From Camelus ferus (Eukaryota): 64,000 bases of DNA. The position numbers were made by a program, and so were the translations under genes. How positions within the stretch are numbered: position 1 is the first letter of the stretch; each line of letters opens with the position of its first letter. Below are positions 46,563 through 58,335 of this stretch, piece after piece. The stretch is taken from contig NC_045696.1 in NCBI RefSeq assembly GCF_009834535.1, positions 62,560,001-62,624,000 of the forward strand. The letters run 5' to 3'. A model generated the notes under the pieces. It saw only the letters and a program-made list of their open reading frames with translations, had not been told where the DNA came from and did no database searches.

Positions 46563-46667
46563 TGGTTGCTGTAAATAGCGACGAGGCCAGGCGGGAGTCT
46601 CTCTTCTGTCCTGATGAGCTAGATTCACTCTTCTCCTACTTTGATACTTCTTCAAAACTACGTAGTA
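46563..46667 (+). CDS. ACAP2: Putative alternative 105-nt cassette exon: VVAVNSDEARRESLFCPDELDSLFSYFDTSSKLRS
   Basis: Pyrimidine tract, ctaac branch-like site and cctcag|TG...AGTA|gtaagt; phase 1/1; CpG-retaining coding-like sequence; resembles recalled ACAP3 RRDSLFCPDELDSLFSYFD. Confidence 0.88.
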
Positions 46668-47143: not shown

Positions 47144-47974
47144 GTGAGTTTTGGTGAAATCCAGTGTTAATTGGTATTGTTTGCTGAAAAATGCGTGTGG
47201 TAAATTCCAGGTTTGATTACGTAGTATCTAAGGAAATGGTTAGTCTTTTAGAAGGTCCTAAGGGCCAATTAATACTGCCAAGTGAGAAAGCAGCTATTTC
47301 TTTTCTTATTTGGAAGTTCTCTCCTAGCTGTGCATTCTTCTAAGTCTCATAATATGTGCTACAAGTAACTTGTCAATAGTTAGGATACTTTTTAATCCAC
47401 ATGAACTGTAGATCTTATTGCCATTATCTTGTTTGTTTGGCTGTCTTTCAGGAGAAGGAGATCAGCAAATCCCCCCCACACCCCAGCCCCTGCCCCACCA
47501 TTAGGTTTTCCTTCTGACCTGTGCTTTCCTCCTATATTCTCTCCTTTATGATTTCAGTGGTTTTGGTCTTGCAAATACTCAGGGTAGTAAGCATTCTTTA
47601 AATTATTTGAACTGCTTGTGCTGCAAATTGTGATGGTATCGGGCCATCCTAGGAATAAAGTAAGGTTTGGTCTAGTAGTAAAATTCTTTAGTGATTCTTA
47701 CTGCCTCTTCTGAGTCTTTAAGACTTTAAGGCTTTTAGGAACATACCTAATTTTAATCTAATACAGAGTAATTTACCTACTCATTCTATACTGGCAAGAC
47801 CACAAAGGCCTGGTATACCAATCAGTCTTTATAAGAGAAGAAGGTTAACTGTTTGGAGAGTGACTAGTCTATCGGAAATAAGATACCTTTGTGAATATCT
47901 CCCATTAGCTCATTTGTTAAATTAGTGGTTTCTTATGTCATAGCTTTCACATTGTAATACAAGTCAGAGTTTAT

Positions 47975-48215: not shown

Positions 48216-48404
48216 AAGGAGAAAGGCAAGATTCTTCTATGTTTCTCGACTCTAAACATCTTAATCCAGGACTCCAGCTTTACAGGGCTTCCTATGAGAA
48301 GAATCTTCCTAAAATGGCTGAGGCTTTGGCTCATGGTGCAGACGTGAACTGGGCAAATTCCTGAGGAAAATAAAGGAACACCGCTTATCCAGGCTGTATT
48401 AGGG
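48216..48404 (+). CDS. ACAP2: ACAP2 exon 19, start of ankyrin region; 189 nt with an apparent 1-bp insertion near 48360-48361 (TGA at 48362-48364)
   Basis: ttttcag|AAGGA...TTAGGG|gtatga. Reads EGERQDSSMF...GADVNWANS*; removing one C restores EENKGTPLIQAVLG and the 188 nt required by the phases. Confidence 0.93.
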
Positions 48405-50240: not shown

Positions 50241-50351
50241 GCAGGTGTGTTTATTCCTAAAACGAGGTGCCAATCAACATGCCACTGATGAAGAAGGGAA
50301 AGACCCTTTGAGTATAGCTGTGGAAGCAGCCAATGCTGATATAGTGACTTT
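50241..50351 (+). CDS. ACAP2: ACAP2 exon 21 (111 nt), ankyrin repeats: QVCLFLKRGANQHATDEEGKDPLSIAVEAANADIVT(L)
   Basis: ttaaacag|GCAG...ACTTT|gtaagt. Confidence 0.97.
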
Positions 50352-50690: not shown

Positions 50691-52555
50691 CCAGTAGGAA
50701 CAGAAAACCATTGACTTTTCTAAAATGGAATCTTTAACTCTTAGTACAATACTGGGGTGGAAGTTGGGTTGGGTTGGTACAGTAACAGGCAATTATACTA
50801 CTACCTCAAGAATTAGAGGATTGTAAACAGGGAAGCCAACTGCGTTGATGTTAGTAACTTTTGCAGTTGCATTGCCTTTGGGCAGTGGTATTTAGGGACC
50901 TGTTTGTGCTTTTTTTTTTTTTTTTTCCAAAGAATTAGTCACATGAGTACTCTATTTTGAGATAAAAATACTTGTTTTTGGATGTTTGGATATAATTTAA
51001 TATGATCTATTAAAGAAAGAATCTTGAGGTCTTAATTTGATTTTCATCTTAGATCAAAGTTGTTTGTTATACTTGGAATCTAGGAATGTGATTGTTGCCT
51101 ACACTTCATTGTTACTTAGGAAATCTCAAACATATGTTGTATGGATCACTTATTCATTCTGTTCTGGGCTGAGTGAAACCCAGGGTTGTTGATCCTCTGT
51201 TGTACGAGTAGAGACAGTTCCATCCACACTGCTGAATGTCAGTCATTTACAAAGAGAAACTCCCTTGACTGTCTTGAACTCCTGAGCTCCCACTGAGAAT
51301 TCTTCACTTGACACATGTCACCCCTCTCTGACCCCTGAAAAGTTAAAAACAAAACAAAGCAAAACAAAACAGCAAAACGTATTTTCTCTGTACTCAGCTT
51401 CTTTTCCTCGCTGGAGGGGTTTTTGTTATTGTGGAGGCTATTGTAGAAAACCTTAGAACCGTTAAATCATTATAGATTTACAACTAGAAAAAATAAGTTG
51501 TTAAAGAAAAGATAGGAATGGTATAGAGAAATGAACCCTGGCTGCAGCTTCCCAAGCAATTCTTATAGTAATGGCCTCTCTTCCTTAGAAATATCTGGTC
51601 CCACATTATCTAAATTTTCTCATTTTGTTTTGTATGAGGACTTAAGTTTCACTTAAAAGTTTTTTTTGAAAAAAAATTTTGAAATACCCATCCTCTCTGA
51701 AAAGTCCAAATACCAAAGGGAGACTTCTTTTGCTATTATTAATTTACACAGTGGTTGAGAAAGGAAATGGAAGGGAATTGTGGTACTTTGAAGATAGGAA
51801 AAACCTCTATCAGACGCTGTAATAGCCAGAGAGAGCATCTTGGAAGAGGGTGATAGAAGTCTGGGAAGGCAGTGAGTATTTGGTGGCCTGAGGACAGGTA
51901 AGAAGTACAGAGTAGGAGAGGGTCACCAAAAGCAACATTTGAGAGGAAACTCTTGTTTTCTTAATCCAGTGCTACATTTCTTCCTGCTGCCGAGATAAAT
52001 AATCCTGAAAAGAACGTACAATCAACATGGTAACCATGGGAAAATCTTAATAACTTAATGGCCATTTGTTTTAATGTCTGTGTGTCAAATATATTCCCAG
52101 TATATATAGAGAATACATACTATTTATATGTCTGAAACTGCTATACCTCAGAGTGAACCAGAATGAACTTATGACAGGCTATTGCTTCCATACTACAGAA
52201 GCAATTATTTTAGCAGTTGGCAGTTAAAGTTTGACAGGTTGCTTTAGAAGCCAGGAATTCTCTGGAGTCTGGAAGAAGTAAGCTCCTGGAGGTGCTGCAA
52301 GGAACCTGCTTAAACAGAGCTGAAATGCTCTTGTTAGAAATCTTTTATTGTCTTCTTTCATGAGAATTGTATAAACTAAAATATGGTTATTTTTATATCT
52401 CAGATTGCTAGGTCTGATAAACTAAAAACCCTTTTGTTTCAGCAGTAAAAGAAAAAATTATATTAGTACATGTCTTAGCTCCTTATATAATTCTTTAGCT
52501 TATGAATCTTTATATTGTACAACTTCATTTAAAAAATCCTTTTATTTAATTTTAG

Positions 52556-52617
52556 GTTACGTTTAGCAAGAATGAATGAAGAGATGCGGGAATCAGAAGG
52601 ACTTTATGGACAGCCAG
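52556..52617 (+). CDS. ACAP2: ACAP2 exon 22 (62 nt): LRLARMNEEMRESEGLYGQP
   Basis: attttag|GTTA...CCAG|gtcaat (weak donor). Confidence 0.96.
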
Positions 52618-52703
52618 GTCAATATTCTACCAATAACCATACTGAAATGCAGTATAAGAAATGCATCCAGGAATTTATCAGTTTACAGTTGGAAGATTCA
52701 TAG
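52618..52703 (+). CDS. ACAP2: Alternative C-terminus by read-through of the exon 22 donor: GQYSTNNHTEMQYKKCIQEFISLQLEDS*
   Basis: Frame stays open for 28 codons to TAG at 52701-52703; resembles recalled ACAP3 C-terminus PTELQFRRCIQEFISLHLEES*. Confidence 0.85.
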
Positions 52704-55700
52704 TTCTTTAGCAAACTAACTTAATACTATAGAGTTTTTATAAATTACTTGTAAATTGTGAGTTGTTACGTATGTACTGTACTTCCTGAATTCTTGGGAG
52801 TGGCTCACTCCCGAGCCTTTAAAAATCCATAACTATTCCTATTACAGTACGCATTTACTTGCTGTATTTAACTCTGGCTGCTGACTTCTTTATCTGCTGT
52901 ACAGATGTCTTCCATATACATTCCAGTGAAGTGAACGGAATGGCAACGCATCTTTATATCCTTACAGCAGCACAACAGTCATTTTCTTTTTGGCTGTCAA
53001 GTGAATATAACAAAATTATTTTCTTTTTGTTATTCAGGGAATTTCTATAAATTGTGTTCAGGGAAAAAACCAAATCACTTTGTGTTGGCATATAAATGTC
53101 AGTATGGAAAATACCTAGAAAAAGCTTATTGGATTAAGAGTTCTGTATTTGATCTAAAAATGAATTGAAGGTTTAAAAATAAAATTTACCAGTAAGTTAA
53201 GAAGCCCACGATCAGAGTGGAGTTAGTTTAAAACGTACAGGGAAAAGGTCTCATTTTATCTTGTAGCTTTGCCCCAAGCAATTGTACACTATCTGTTGGA
53301 TAAACAGAAGTATTTAGAACAATATTTTGTGAACTTGATGGCAACATAAACTTATTTTTATTAGAGAAATCTCAACTCAGGATCAGCTCAAGCCTCATTT
53401 TGAGTAATTTTTATCTTTGAGTTGAGATGTCAAGAAAAGCAAGAAATGTTGCTGATAAGATTTCTTTCTTGATGAACACATCCTAATTAGACATTCTTCA
53501 CAAAGAAGAGAATAATAATTAGATCTCCAGTTTCATGAATTTCAGTATATGAATGACTAATTTATCTGTTTTAAATTCATATACATGTTGGTTAAAAATT
53601 TCAGGAATTCATGACCAAAATAATTGAGAGTGTTCAGTTTTCAGTGAGTACATTTGATTTTTTCAATGAATATTAATATATTATTTTAAAAGTAGCTTGT
53701 AATATCATCTATTTTTCCTGTTTAAGTATGTTTTGAAATTTCTGTACTTTATGCTAGCTTTAGCCATTTACTTTTATTTTAACCAGATTAACATATAATT
53801 GATATAAAAATGGGACCATTCTTAGAGGACTGTATTTACTACTTATTTTTGGTCTAATTTAATAGGGAGCAAGTAAGAACTCTGAGAATAGAGGCACTTC
53901 AGCTAGGTACTTCTAATCTAGGGTGTCCCACTTTAATCCTATGGATCAAACAATACTACTGATTCATGATGTACCACGATGTAAGAGTGCTGATTAAGGG
54001 TGAAGTGTCAGTATTAATTCTGAATTTCACCTATTTGTTTTAAACTTGAATGTTAGATTTTAAATAAGTTATAATTTTGTAACAGATATACTTAAAAGAT
54101 AGTATTACTAGGCCATTTTTGAGGCCTTTGTGTTTAAGCACTTTAAAATGAACATTATTCAAAGAATATGATCTGATATGGGAGATAAGAGTGAACTTCA
54201 AGTTTTGAGTGAACTTCAGGTTTTAAGTTAAACAATTTTTTTTTTCCCTGAAATTTTAAACATAAATGTTTGGTCAGCTGCTCTTTCCTTAAGGTGTTTG
54301 CTGATGAAATTACACCCAACAGATTAGTCAGAAGGTCAGTGGTCGACTTTTTCTCTGGAGCTGGGAAGCTTGGAAGGACAGGTCCTCTGTGTTCTTGCAA
54401 CTTCTAGTTCCACCCAGACTGCCTGGGCTTCTGCCGCTGTGTAGGAGCATTCACATGTGTCTTTCACTGTCGTTTTATGTGTAAGTTGATGAGTATATAC
54501 CTTCCAGTCATCGGTACAAAAACAGATTTTTCTCATTTATTTGAGTAAAAATTTGAAAGAAAAAGCTTTATTTAAAAAATAAAAAAACGAGCTTTTCTAC
54601 TACCACTCTCAAATTTTAGTGTAGAAAAGATTAAAAATACATCAGAATTCTGGAAATGGTGTATCAGCAGAATAAAATGAGATTCTGATTTGATCATAAT
54701 TAGATTTTAAATTCATTTAGAGAGTCTCATATTTAAAGCAGAACAACTTTATACTTATACAGGTGACGTGGTGAAATGGCTCAGTAATTGCTCTGGCTAC
54801 TTTTCCTTTGTGAGTCTTTGGAGAGCGGATGTTTTTGCTCAGGCAGCAGGCCTTTTTCTGCTTTCTGCTTATCACTGTAAATTTTTCTCTCGTTTTTTGA
54901 TGCCTAGCAATAGAAAGAAAGCCTCAGAATTCTGGGTAATTTTAAAATACAGGTATTTTCAATGTTTTCATTGTAAAGAGCCCTATCATTTTAAAGATTC
55001 AGATACAATTTTGGAAACTATGGACCTATTTCTAGGAACCCTCGCTTTAGAACTTCTGGCCTACAACCCTAAGGACCTGAGGCTCCCTATCTTTTTGCAA
55101 GATGATGTAAGAGCACACATTTCCTGAAGGGAAGATGTATCCCTCTTTATCGGTTCCCACAGCTCTTAGGAGGACTGGGTGGGTGAGTGCAATATCACAT
55201 CCTGCTCTCGATTGTTGGAAACCAATTTGGTGATTCCCACAGTCTCTGGCTCTGGGACTCCTCTTGATTGTGGCAGTTTCTCAGCCAGTAGAAAATCACC
55301 ACTTTAGTGAACCACCACTGGCTACTAGAGTATGTGGCCGGTGAAGACTGATTAATGATCTAATTGGTTATAAAAAGGAAGCTGCAATTAACCCAGAAGG
55401 GGCAGGATCATACACTGATCACCTGGGGGTGGGGTCTCATATGCTGCTGTCTTTGAGAGGAGTACATTTCAAGAGTAAAATCAGCAAATTTGGATCATAA
55501 CTGTGGTTGTAGTGGTTATTCTGAATACCAAAAATCAAAAACTGTCTTAAACTGTCAGTGGAAATAAAGCAGTCCAATTTTAAAGACTCAGAACTGTCCA
55601 GGCACATAGAAAGGTTAACTTTCTGAAGAGAAATAGAATGTGATTAAGTAATTTAAAGAATATAACTTAGTACTACAAATATTGAGTGGTTAGTTGTTTA

Positions 55701-58234
55701 CTGTTTATAATAAAGTGTTAAATGTACTTATATGAACTTTCCAGGGCAACATATTCTGGGTTATTGTTTATGTATTCTAGTGTAGACAAGTTATATTTGC
55801 CTTGGGAAACATTCTAAATGATTAAAATTGTATTTAAAGAATCACATTGAAGTTCAGTTTGTGTTAACTGTATTACATTTCTCAGTATTGTAATTGTAAT
55901 GTTTGCTTTTTGACAACACATTTTGAGGCCTAAGAAAGGTATTATATTGATAGTCCATTAATTAATGTTTGGTTAGAAACTGGATGTTAACAAAAAGTTT
56001 TGTGTGAGCATTTGAAGGTGAGACTTCCTTTTGTGTTAACTCTTTTAAAATGTATTCAGTAAGTGAAACCAATGATTAGTATAGCACCAACACTTTCCTT
56101 CAAGGAAGCATTTAATTCAGTGAATAAAAAATCTTATAATTTGTTTGCATGGTACAATGGTTCTACTAGAATGTACTTGTGTAATAGGTATTAGATGATT
56201 TAAAAACAAAAACTGGAAAACCACAAAAAGAAAAAAAAATCCCACAGCTTGTTATACAAAATATGCATTGCTAATAGTAGAAGCCATATATTGCCATTGT
56301 ACTGTTGTAATACTTAAGAATGCTCATCTGGTGCTATCTGTAAACTATTTGGCATTAGCGTCTGCTAGATCCTTCCTATTTCTTCTTGAATGTATAATGT
56401 GTGCCTTTTAAGTTACTTTTGGTGTTGAATAGTAAAAATCAGTGTGGTATTTTTGTATTATAATCTGCACTTTACACTTTCTTGGAAAGTAAATTCCAGA
56501 CTCTCCAGTTCATAGTATTTTTTAAATGTTTATAATGTTTACAATAAATATTTTCAATATTTTAATTCAACATCTAAGAATAAGAAAAACTTTAAATATT
56601 TTGTATGGTTTGTTAATTGATATTTAATGTTGGTCTCTTCTCAGTTTATTTTATATCTTTTAGAATGGCTAAAAATGGGAATAGATTGTAGTTTGTCTTT
56701 TAATGTGGGAGTAAGCTTTCATCAAATCATGGGTGTAATTGGATTGTCTTTACCAGTTGTTCCAGCATATCAACCTTTATTTTTATTGTTTTAGTAACAA
56801 TAATATGAGTTAGATTTTACTCTTAGCCACAACCTATTAAGATTCTCTTACTGGTTTTTTGTTTTTTTCTTTTTTAAGTAGAGTGGTTGATTCAGGTCAT
56901 GAGAAAATTTCCAGGGCTAAATGAAAACTATATAGATATTTTAATAACTTGCTTTTTACACTGACTAAATATTAAAAGCATTAAAAATTTTTATTGAAAA
57001 TCTTGGGTTATGCTTTTAGACCTTTTTACTAGATCTTTACCTCCTTCCCCCAATTTTTTTCTAATTCTCTTAGTGTTTGGTATGACATCTATTGCCTCAA
57101 AAAATCTCGCTTTTTACAAGCTGACAAAACTTATTGCACTATTAACAGCAACTGTAGCAATAAGTTTGTAATAAGATGGATGCAAGGTATCTCATGGGGA
57201 AAAATTATAAAACCATATTGAAACAATAATCGTCTAAAACAGTATTTGACAATCTAAATCTTGAAAACAGAACTATGCCAAGCTTCTGTATAAGACTGAT
57301 ATGTTTAACAGGAAGCATTCATGATGAATGATTCATCTTGAAAATAAGATTTTATTTTATACAGATCTTTTGCCTGAGGAGTTAATCATGTGTGTATATA
57401 TTTATTTATAGTTTTTCATGGCAAGAAAAAGGTATTCAATCTGCTATATCAGTGTCTATAATTTACTTCTCTACAATCATATTTGTATGTGTATACATAT
57501 GTATTACTCTAATTTAACAGATGTCTTTGGTATTTATTGCCCCTTTGTTATAGTGTCCTTGCTCATATAACCTACAGTAAACAAAAAAAAAACCTTCTTG
57601 ACTAAATGTGAAACTGATTTTAAAGTCATTTTCTGGGCTTTATTATTTTATAAGCTTAGTAAACAGTGGATTAGATGCATTAGTTTTACTTAAGTATTAA
57701 AGTTTGAACAAAGATTTACTTTTCACATGCTATTTAATTTAAAATGCCTTTAATTAAAAGACAATATTAAAATAGGAGGCTTTTCCCCCACCTGGGTATC
57801 AGTTTTGTCTTGCTAATAACTTGCATCCATCAGAAACATTAGTATTTGTCTTTGGTCTTTTCTTTTGGCCTTGATCAAGGGAAATATTTGTTTAAAGAAT
57901 GCCTTGTTTATTATACCTCATTTAGAATGACTTTTATTTCTCATGTGTTAATAAATGTATTTCTTTACATTGCTTTAAAATACTGGCATCTTTGCTCTTT
58001 TCTAACTCTGAGCTTTCTTCTGTGGCTGCCTCTGAGGTGCTTTGTTCAGGTATAGTTTTTTTCTCTTTCACTGTGTAACTTTCCAGCACTTAATTAGTTG
58101 GTCTTTTTTCTTTCAAAAATGCTCATTTTAATATAATGAATTATAAAATAGTTACTAATCATAAAAATAAACGTTGCTTATTAGTACTTTCTTTGGGTAG
58201 ATTTTAAAAGTGTCTTTATTTTACTTTCATGCAG

Positions 58235-58335
58235 GTGATGAAACTTACCAGGACATTTTTCGTGATTTCTCCCAAATGGCATCCAATAATCCAGAGAAAC
58301 TAAATCGTTTCCAGCAAGATTCACAGAAATTTTGA
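58235..58335 (+). CDS. ACAP2: ACAP2 exon 23, coding part (101 nt): GDETYQDIFRDFSQMASNNPEKLNRFQQDSQKF*
   Basis: ttcatgcag|GTGAT...TTT TGA. Confidence 0.97.

What the first reader, a model, noticed from the sequence alone, without database searches (positions are those of the whole stretch)
52556..52703. Mutually exclusive C-termini through a weak exon 22 donor
The donor CAG|GTCAAT is weak. If it is not used, the frame continues 28 codons to ..CIQEFISLQLEDS* (ACAP3-like). If it is used, exon 23 gives GDETYQDIFRDFSQMAS.. (ACAP1-like, from memory). The two tails themselves align loosely (YKKCIQEF versus YQDIFRDF), suggesting an ancient duplicated terminal helix with two variants (inference).
Basis: partly seen in the sequence, partly recalled or inferred. 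Interest (0 to 1): 0.7.

Follow-up and report, generated by a model that had tools for sequence, protein, structure and literature searches.

The report
Ancient alternative tail of ACAP2
The membrane-traffic gene ACAP2 can end in either of two short helices depending on whether one splice site is used; the second ending is already in gene databases but appears unstudied, is kept from sharks to mammals, and replaces part of the protein seen in its crystal with the partner Rab35.

Summary
The window holds mammalian ACAP2. The exon at 52556-52617 either splices to 58235 (D tail, DETY..) or reads through its donor for 27 residues to a stop at 52701-52703 (Q tail). The Q tail is real: identical from mammals to crocodile, 83% in whale shark, present in spliced assemblies, and already annotated (human UniProt H7C3K3, RefSeq X isoforms). 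The two-tail arrangement is older than mammals. Teleost ACAP3 genes carry both tails, and a fish ACAP3-type locus has the same 11-base donor. All six invertebrate ACAPs seen and ACAP1 have only the D type. So D is ancestral and Q is a vertebrate addition. The D tail is ordered in the Rab35-ACAP2 crystal (6IF3), so the swap may tune Rab35 binding; this is inferred and untested. I have no read-level junctions and no mapped 3' end. Verdict: an annotated isoform of a known kind, with an apparently unpublished history and a testable function.

The parts
50241..50351 (+). preceding exon (last ankyrin repeats), splices to 52556
52556..52617 (+). shared part of the penultimate/terminal exon; encodes the long helix that extends the last ankyrin repeat, up to the first base of the Gly codon
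   Evidence: helix 262-280 in the model
52614..52624 (+). internal 5' splice site (GT at 52618-52619), which is also the Pro-Gly-Gln-Tyr codons; these 11 bases are identical in a fish ACAP3-type locus L001
52618..52703 (+). Q tail: read-through coding extension of 27 residues, a flexible linker then a predicted helix, stop TAG 52701-52703
52704..56570 (+). inferred 3' UTR of the Q isoform; end not mapped (AATAAA at 53178, 54578, 54671, 55563, 55709, 56123, 56543; 56570 is a guess)
   Evidence: contig lengths; inference
58235..58335 (+). coding part of the canonical last exon: D tail of 32 residues, ordered in the Rab35 complex 6IF3, stop TGA 58333-58335

Best explanation
This is a composite (read-through) alternative terminal exon of ACAP2. 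When the donor at 52617/52618 is used, the mRNA splices to 58235 and the protein ends in the ancestral D helix. When it is not used, the exon runs on, translation adds the Q helix and stops at 52703, and the RNA most likely ends at a polyadenylation site within the 5.6-kb intron (inferred). Both proteins keep the BAR, PH, ArfGAP and ankyrin domains. Only the last helix and its linker change: 3 residues lie between the shared Gly and the helix Tyr in D, 11 in Q. History: D is ancestral; Q was in place before ACAP2 and ACAP3 separated; ACAP2 and teleost ACAP3 keep both; ACAP1 shows only D; the amniote ACAP3 records seen show only Q. The likeliest function (inferred, about 0.35) is that the swap changes the surface offered to Rab35-GTP, and so where ACAP2 switches off Arf6. 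SHOWN: both frames, their conservation, their annotation, both tails in single genes, D ordered in 6IF3. INFERRED: the intronic poly(A) site, regulation, the order of gain and loss, any effect on Rab35.
For: Protein conservation: identical in 34 of 120 listed hits including Crocodylus; Polypterus 92%, whale shark 83%. Annotated: P0013 = UniRef100_H7C3K3 Homo and a Hylobates RefSeq X4 model. Both tails in one cluster: squirrel 9 D and 2 Q of 11; shark cluster 5 Q and 3 D of 8; crocodile 3 Q, 1 D, 1 fragment of 5. Spliced assemblies: six Logan records with 673-812 aa unbroken frames on 2.2-7.2 kb contigs end in the Q tail (P0010, P0017, P0019, P0025, P0031, P0032). Same-species RNA: 7 of 14 RNA or RNA-guess runs hold 0.81-0.84 of the words of 52400-53400, where 0.84 is expected for RNA that starts at the acceptor and runs past the donor. 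Teleost ACAP3 has both tails: XP_064155323 (D) and XP_064155324 (Q), XP_029478305 (D) and XP_029478307 (Q); 120 of 120 listed hits are D-type. A tree built without the tails puts D and Q fish proteins in one clade (SH-aLRT 99) inside the ACAP3 clade (99). The donor is identical over 11 bases in fish locus L001 while 11 of the 20 shared codons differ silently. All 6 outgroup proteins are D-type (coral, oyster, annelid, gastropod, two with truncated or no name), as are 11 of 11 in a turtle ACAP1 cluster. The D model aligns to 6IF3_A over 157 of 159 residues, chain 605-768 (Z 23.6, rmsd 2.2).
Against: I obtained no read-level data. The word shares were not located on the sequence, 11 of the 14 runs are only guessed to be RNA, and the 3 on record as RNA come from one study. 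The poly(A) site is unmapped, and two Logan contigs carry intron sequence joined to the last exon (P0272, P0273), which fits DNA, pre-mRNA or full retention. No peptide evidence was examined. The tree is a quick one (SH-aLRT only, 6 of 40 rows under half filled) and leaves ACAP1, ACAP2, ACAP3 and a long-branch fish pair unresolved; lamprey, amphioxus, tunicate, fly and worm were not sampled. Against the Rab35 idea: the published binding-deficient mutant N610A/N691A (PMC6358971, passage) lies in the shared ankyrin part, which both isoforms keep. That the D tail touches Rab35 through D756 is recalled, not read. The Q helix placement in the model is low confidence (pLDDT 53-71).
Confidence: 0.85

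Rival explanations
1. The Q protein is real, but it comes from full retention of the 5.6-kb last intron, the RNA ending at the normal 3' end, and not from an intronic poly(A) site.
For: Retention of the last intron leaves no downstream junction, so it should escape junction-dependent decay (general knowledge). P0272 and P0273 show intron sequence joined to the last exon on Logan contigs. 5 of 14 RNA or RNA-guess runs hold 0.99 of the words, upstream intron included.
Against: Four Q-ending contigs cluster at 6.9-7.2 kb, which leaves about 4.4 kb for the UTRs; full retention in this genome would give about 10 kb of 3' UTR. Seven AATAAA lie between 53178 and 56543. Contig ends are not RNA ends, so this is weak.
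Confidence: 0.2
2. The two tails descend from a duplicated terminal helix or exon.
For: Both are predicted helices and share the register Y-x-x-x-hydrophobic-x-[ED]-F-x-x-hydrophobic. MAFFT put the Q helix on the fish ACAP3, ACAP1 and invertebrate D helices in that register, though not on the rat D tail. Column shuffles reached the observed score in 225 of 5000.
Against: The score is no higher than for generic helices (103 of 234 BAR windows, 870 of 4280 control windows); DNA identity is 15 of 45; BLASTP finds no alignment. The Q tail has no acceptor of its own. The D motif MAS..PE.L.R has no counterpart in Q.
Confidence: 0.25
3. The Q tail does not tune Rab35 binding but offers a different surface (another partner, a lipid-binding helix, or a palmitoylated Cys), or its long separate 3' UTR is what matters.
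For: Invariant Q-tail columns are E297, Q299, C303, E306, F307 and I308 among 24 aligned proteins, and the Cys follows basic residues. The helix is amphipathic, though less so than D (best 11-mer moment 0.55 against 0.74). The Rab35-critical Asn residues are shared by both isoforms.
Against: No partner is identified. The last four residues vary widely across 149 Q-ending records, and frogs extend them, which argues against a PDZ-type ligand.
Confidence: 0.35
4. The read-through frame is an annotation artefact of unspliced RNA.
For: An open 28-codon run starts at 804 of 5447 positions in this intron. All Q records seen are predicted or unreviewed.
Against: Residue-level identity from mammals to crocodile, 83% to shark, and homology to the usual ACAP3 ending. 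17 of 29 codons from the Gly to the stop keep their meaning against a fish paralogue, and the stop falls at the same codon.
Confidence: 0.02

Closest known systems
Human ACAP2 unreviewed entry UniProt H7C3K3 (808 aa, P0013) and RefSeq predicted ACAP2 isoforms such as XP_058282142 and XP_047419483
   Same: Same gene, same read-through, identical last 48 residues.
   Different: These are annotations only; my ten literature searches showed no paper on the isoform's expression or function.
Canonical ACAP2 / centaurin-beta2, as in the Rab35 complex PDB 6IF3
   Same: Same ankyrin domain and long helix to residue 739 (rmsd 0.6 over 135 residues).
   Different: The crystal holds the D tail (chain to 768). 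The Q isoform replaces everything after G746, and no solved structure matches the Q tail.
ACAP3 / centaurin-beta5
   Same: Bird, turtle, snake and anteater records end in the homologous Q helix; teleost ACAP3 has the same two-tail choice at the same Gly.
   Different: In the amniote ACAP3 records seen Q is the only ending, and the anteater protein has lost the Gly-Gln-Tyr that carries the donor. Absence of a D exon in amniote ACAP3 was not shown.
Composite terminal exons with intronic polyadenylation (IgM secreted versus membrane form, soluble FLT1; recalled, from no call)
   Same: An internal donor competes with read-through to a stop, which swaps the C-terminus.
   Different: Here no domain is lost: one helix is exchanged for another of similar length, and the choice is shared by two paralogues.

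Membership tests
ACAP2 gene | BAR-PH-ArfGAP-ankyrin exons matching ACAP2 | tested here: met
   20 tblastn blocks of P0013 (residues 93-808) map in order; the last three are 100% identical. 6IF3_A is the only PDB match of P0001.
Composite alternative terminal exon | one acceptor, with an internal 5' splice site that is used in another isoform | tested here: met
   Acceptor before 52556 and GT at 52618. D-ending records join at this Gly (116 of 116 examined).
Composite alternative terminal exon | conserved in-frame extension with its own stop | tested here: met
Composite alternative terminal exon | spliced transcripts that extend past the donor | tested here: met
   Indirect: six long unbroken Q-ending frames on short Logan contigs and word shares in same-species runs. 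No reads were laid.
Composite alternative terminal exon | a polyadenylation site inside the intron is used | tested here: inconclusive
   Candidate AATAAA only; contig lengths are suggestive.
Mutually exclusive exons from tandem exon duplication | each alternative has its own acceptor | tested here: not met
   The Q tail is contiguous with the shared exon.
Mutually exclusive exons from tandem exon duplication | detectable homology between the alternatives | tested here: inconclusive
   Not above helical controls; short helices of this age may have lost the signal.
Rab35 effector (ACAP2 type) | Asn610 and Asn691 (rodent numbering) in the ankyrin part | tested here: met
   Present in the Q-ending record P0003; the residues are named in PMC6358971 (passage).
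Rab35 effector (ACAP2 type) | binding of the Q isoform to Rab35-GTP | not tested
PDZ-binding C-terminus | conserved terminal four-residue motif | tested here: not met
   25 different endings among 149 Q records.

The most novel reading that the evidence does not exclude
A splice choice older than the ACAP2/ACAP3 split switches ACAP2 between a Rab35-coupled Arf6 GAP (D tail) and a Rab35-uncoupled or weakly coupled, ACAP3-like one (Q tail). The donor is held at intermediate strength by a silent codon choice (Gln CAA rather than CAG), and the paralogues later divided the two ancestral isoforms between them (ACAP1 kept D, amniote ACAP3 kept Q). Work on the Rab35-ACAP2-Arf6 pathway would then have missed half of the gene's output.
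Probability: 0.3. Interest if true: 0.62.

Novelty: already known. Interest (0 to 1): 0.38.

Why it matters
ACAP2 is the effector through which Rab35 turns off Arf6 in phagocytosis, neurite outgrowth and myelination (PMC6358971, PMC7793921, PMC6539230; passages). The crystal structure and the one pull-down construct I could read about (residues 587-777, PMC4502309) run into the D tail. If the equally conserved Q isoform binds Rab35 differently, knockdown and rescue results depend on which tail was used, and one binding assay would show it. The family is also a compact case of paralogues dividing ancestral splice isoforms between them. If binding is unchanged, this is an ordinary, already annotated alternative last exon.

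Tried and rejected
Read-level evidence: none obtained, so junction counts, isoform ratio and 3' ends stay open. No whole genome is held for this window. The search of 50% representatives with P0003 was crowded by long ankyrin proteins; I picked 25 of the 150 listed as ACAP-like, and 3 of those 25 had no usable tail. The metagenome scan gave 2 loci from 319 pattern matches and no mammalian orthologue, so silent-site conservation among mammals was not measured. The Q model's helix did not align to the D helix of 6IF3 (alignment stops at 739), but at pLDDT 53-71 this says nothing either way; ACAP1 structures with the D helix date from 2010-2012 and may favour the D model. The hhalign output was cut before the tails. 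The control set (107 proteins over 1500 aa) included one ACAP3 fusion record (P0580), which explains its maximum of 94.9 and is at most 40 of 4280 windows. Open-frame length as evidence was rejected, as was a PDZ ligand. No complex was predicted: no Rab35 sequence was held, and a pass would have reflected likeness to 6IF3. Lin et al. 2019 (PMID 30905672) and Etoh and Fukuda 2015 (PMC4423693) are not held. Literature searches returned nothing; others returned 2-9 papers each, none about this isoform by title or abstract start. Earlier scan findings: nothing near or similar; the word search gave only other genes. No paper supplements were opened; isoform or poly(A) tables there could list this event.

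Full report
Anatomy. The window holds most of a mammalian ACAP2 gene on the + strand: 20 tblastn blocks of the ACAP2 record P0013 map in order. The exon in question starts at 52556. Its internal donor has GT at 52618-52619, and the next exon starts at 58235. Splicing gives a 32-residue tail after the shared Gly (D tail). Read-through gives 27 residues and a stop at 52701-52703 (Q tail).

Is it more than chance? The open frame alone is not: 804 of 5447 positions in this intron start a 28-codon open run, although none of 17 other donors of the gene reads through more than 25 residues. Conservation is decisive. The 48-residue query found 641 proteins at E<=0.001, of which 120 were listed. All 120 end in a Q-type helix and 34 end in the identical 48 residues, among them primates, rodents, carnivores, whales and crocodile. 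Identity is 92% in Polypterus, 83% in whale shark and 72-74% in bird and turtle ACAP3.

Is it transcribed? The evidence is indirect. Six Logan records carry unbroken frames of 673-812 residues on contigs of 2.2-7.2 kb and end in the Q tail; a gene of over 50 kb can give these only as spliced RNA (inference). In the window's own species, 14 RNA or RNA-guess runs hold the stretch 52400-53400: 7 at a share of 0.81-0.84 (4 studies), 2 at 0.90-0.95 and 5 at 0.99. A transcript that starts at the acceptor and runs past the donor would give 0.84. Only 3 of these runs, from one study, are on record as RNA, and no reads were laid, so junction counts and 3' ends are unknown.

It is already annotated. P0013 is UniRef100_H7C3K3 (Homo) and a gibbon RefSeq X4 model. 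A squirrel cluster has 9 D and 2 Q forms among 11. A crocodile cluster has 3 Q, 1 D and 1 fragment among 5. A shark cluster has 5 Q (whale shark) and 3 D (records on other contigs, names cut) among 8, so both tails occur in that clade but were not seen in one shark species. The one curated RefSeq record met, rat NP_001029178, ends in D.

History. Teleost ACAP3 carries both tails at the same Gly: XP_064155323 (D) and XP_064155324 (Q) are neighbouring isoform records, as are XP_029478305 (D) and XP_029478307 (Q). A search with the fish D tail listed 120 of 404 hits, all D-type, and all the named ones are teleosts. A quick tree of 40 hand-picked proteins with the tails cut off places fish D and Q proteins in one clade within ACAP3 (SH-aLRT 99 and 99), and shark-to-mammal D and Q proteins within ACAP2 (99). 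The six outgroup proteins (Acropora, Pinctada, Paralvinella, Plakobranchus, two with cut or no names) are all D-type, as are locus L002, turtle ACAP1 (11 of 11) and the solved ACAP1 chains. So D is ancestral and Q predates the ACAP2/ACAP3 split. Whether ACAP1 lost Q or never had it is open, as the tree leaves that fork unresolved. The amniote ACAP3 records seen end only in Q, but most were found with a Q query, so loss of D there is inferred. The anteater protein lacks the Gly-Gln-Tyr that carries the donor, which fits such a loss.

The donor. Its U1 duplex energy is -5.6 kcal/mol. Of 17 other donors in the gene 2 are weaker, 2 tie and 13 are stronger. It has 9 of 11 U1 matches, the most of any, but alone has C at +3 (the U1 end is recalled, and this is a crude score, not MaxEntScan). 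So it is moderately weak, and weakness alone does not explain the read-through. The site is also coding sequence. Writing its Gln codon as CAG would put G at +5 and give -9.9, yet the fish ACAP3-type locus L001 has the same 11 bases, CAA included, while 11 of the 20 shared codons upstream differ silently. This is one comparison. It suggests, but does not show, that the strength of the site is under selection.

Duplicated helix? Both tails are predicted helices: residues 295-313 of the Q model and 189-204 of the D model. But 103 of 234 BAR windows, 287 of 754 windows of the rest of ACAP2 and 870 of 4280 control windows score as high; the DNA is 15 of 45 identical and BLASTP finds nothing. The Q tail has no acceptor of its own. 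Recruitment of intron sequence explains this at least as well. Duplication is not excluded.

Function. PDB 6IF3, titled as the complex of Rab35 and ACAP2, contains the D tail: the D model aligns over 157 of 159 residues, chain 605-768, and the tail starts at D747 in that numbering. The Q model matches only to 739, and its last helix is placed with low confidence. PMC9308819 (passage) says that ACAP2 binds Rab35 through three parallel helices. I recall from Lin et al. 2019, which is not held, that D721, R727, M731 and D756 are contact residues. The letters at those numbers agree with the sequence, but the claim itself is unchecked. D756 lies in the D tail; in register the Q tail has Glu there, after a linker 8 residues longer. 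Against a full switch, the other three recalled residues and the published N610/N691 pair (PMC6358971, passage, citing Etoh and Fukuda 2015, not held) are in the shared part. I put altered Rab35 coupling at about 0.35, level with a different partner, acylation of the invariant Cys or a UTR effect.

Literature. I read passages of PMC6539230, PMC9308819, PMC10966776, PMC6358971, PMC7793921, PMC4502309, PMC6261971 and bioRxiv 10.64898/2026.02.20.707090; none of the passages mentions a second C-terminus. Ten searches showed no paper on it; those for 'alternative last exon' and 'intronic polyadenylation' with ACAP2 returned none. The library lacks most subscription journals, and no supplements were opened.

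Verdict. A real and deeply conserved alternative terminal exon, already in the databases and of a familiar kind. What seems new is its age, its sharing with fish ACAP3, and the testable link to the Rab35 interface. Interest 0.38.

Noticed in passing
window 48361-48363: An ankyrin-region exon carries one base more than its homologues, which shifts the frame and gives an early TGA. In so conserved a gene this is most likely an assembly error; not checked against reads.
   Followed up: partly
window 46563-46667: A 105-base in-frame exon between the ArfGAP and ankyrin domains, present in P0013. The many ACAP2 record lengths (768-824 aa) suggest that it is optional.
   Followed up: no
window 47451-47550: The stretch 47400-47600 contains a purine-rich, exon-like segment after an AG at about 47451, inside the intron between 47143 and 48216. 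Seen by eye only; it may be a further small alternative exon.
   Followed up: no
window 55500-56600: A cluster of AATAAA (55563, 55709, 56123, 56543) with T-rich sequence after 56543: the best candidate end of the Q-isoform 3' UTR.
   Followed up: partly
proteins P0049-P0052: Frog ACAP2 Q tails run 14-16 residues further than in amniotes.
   Followed up: no
proteins P0208, P0232: Teleost proteins with a D tail, one named ACAP2 by its source, form their own long branch outside both the ACAP2 and ACAP3 clades; they may be ACAP1.
   Followed up: no
L002 2478-2640: An ACAP with a D-type tail encoded without an intron after the long helix; an mRNA, or a gene lacking this intron.
   Followed up: no
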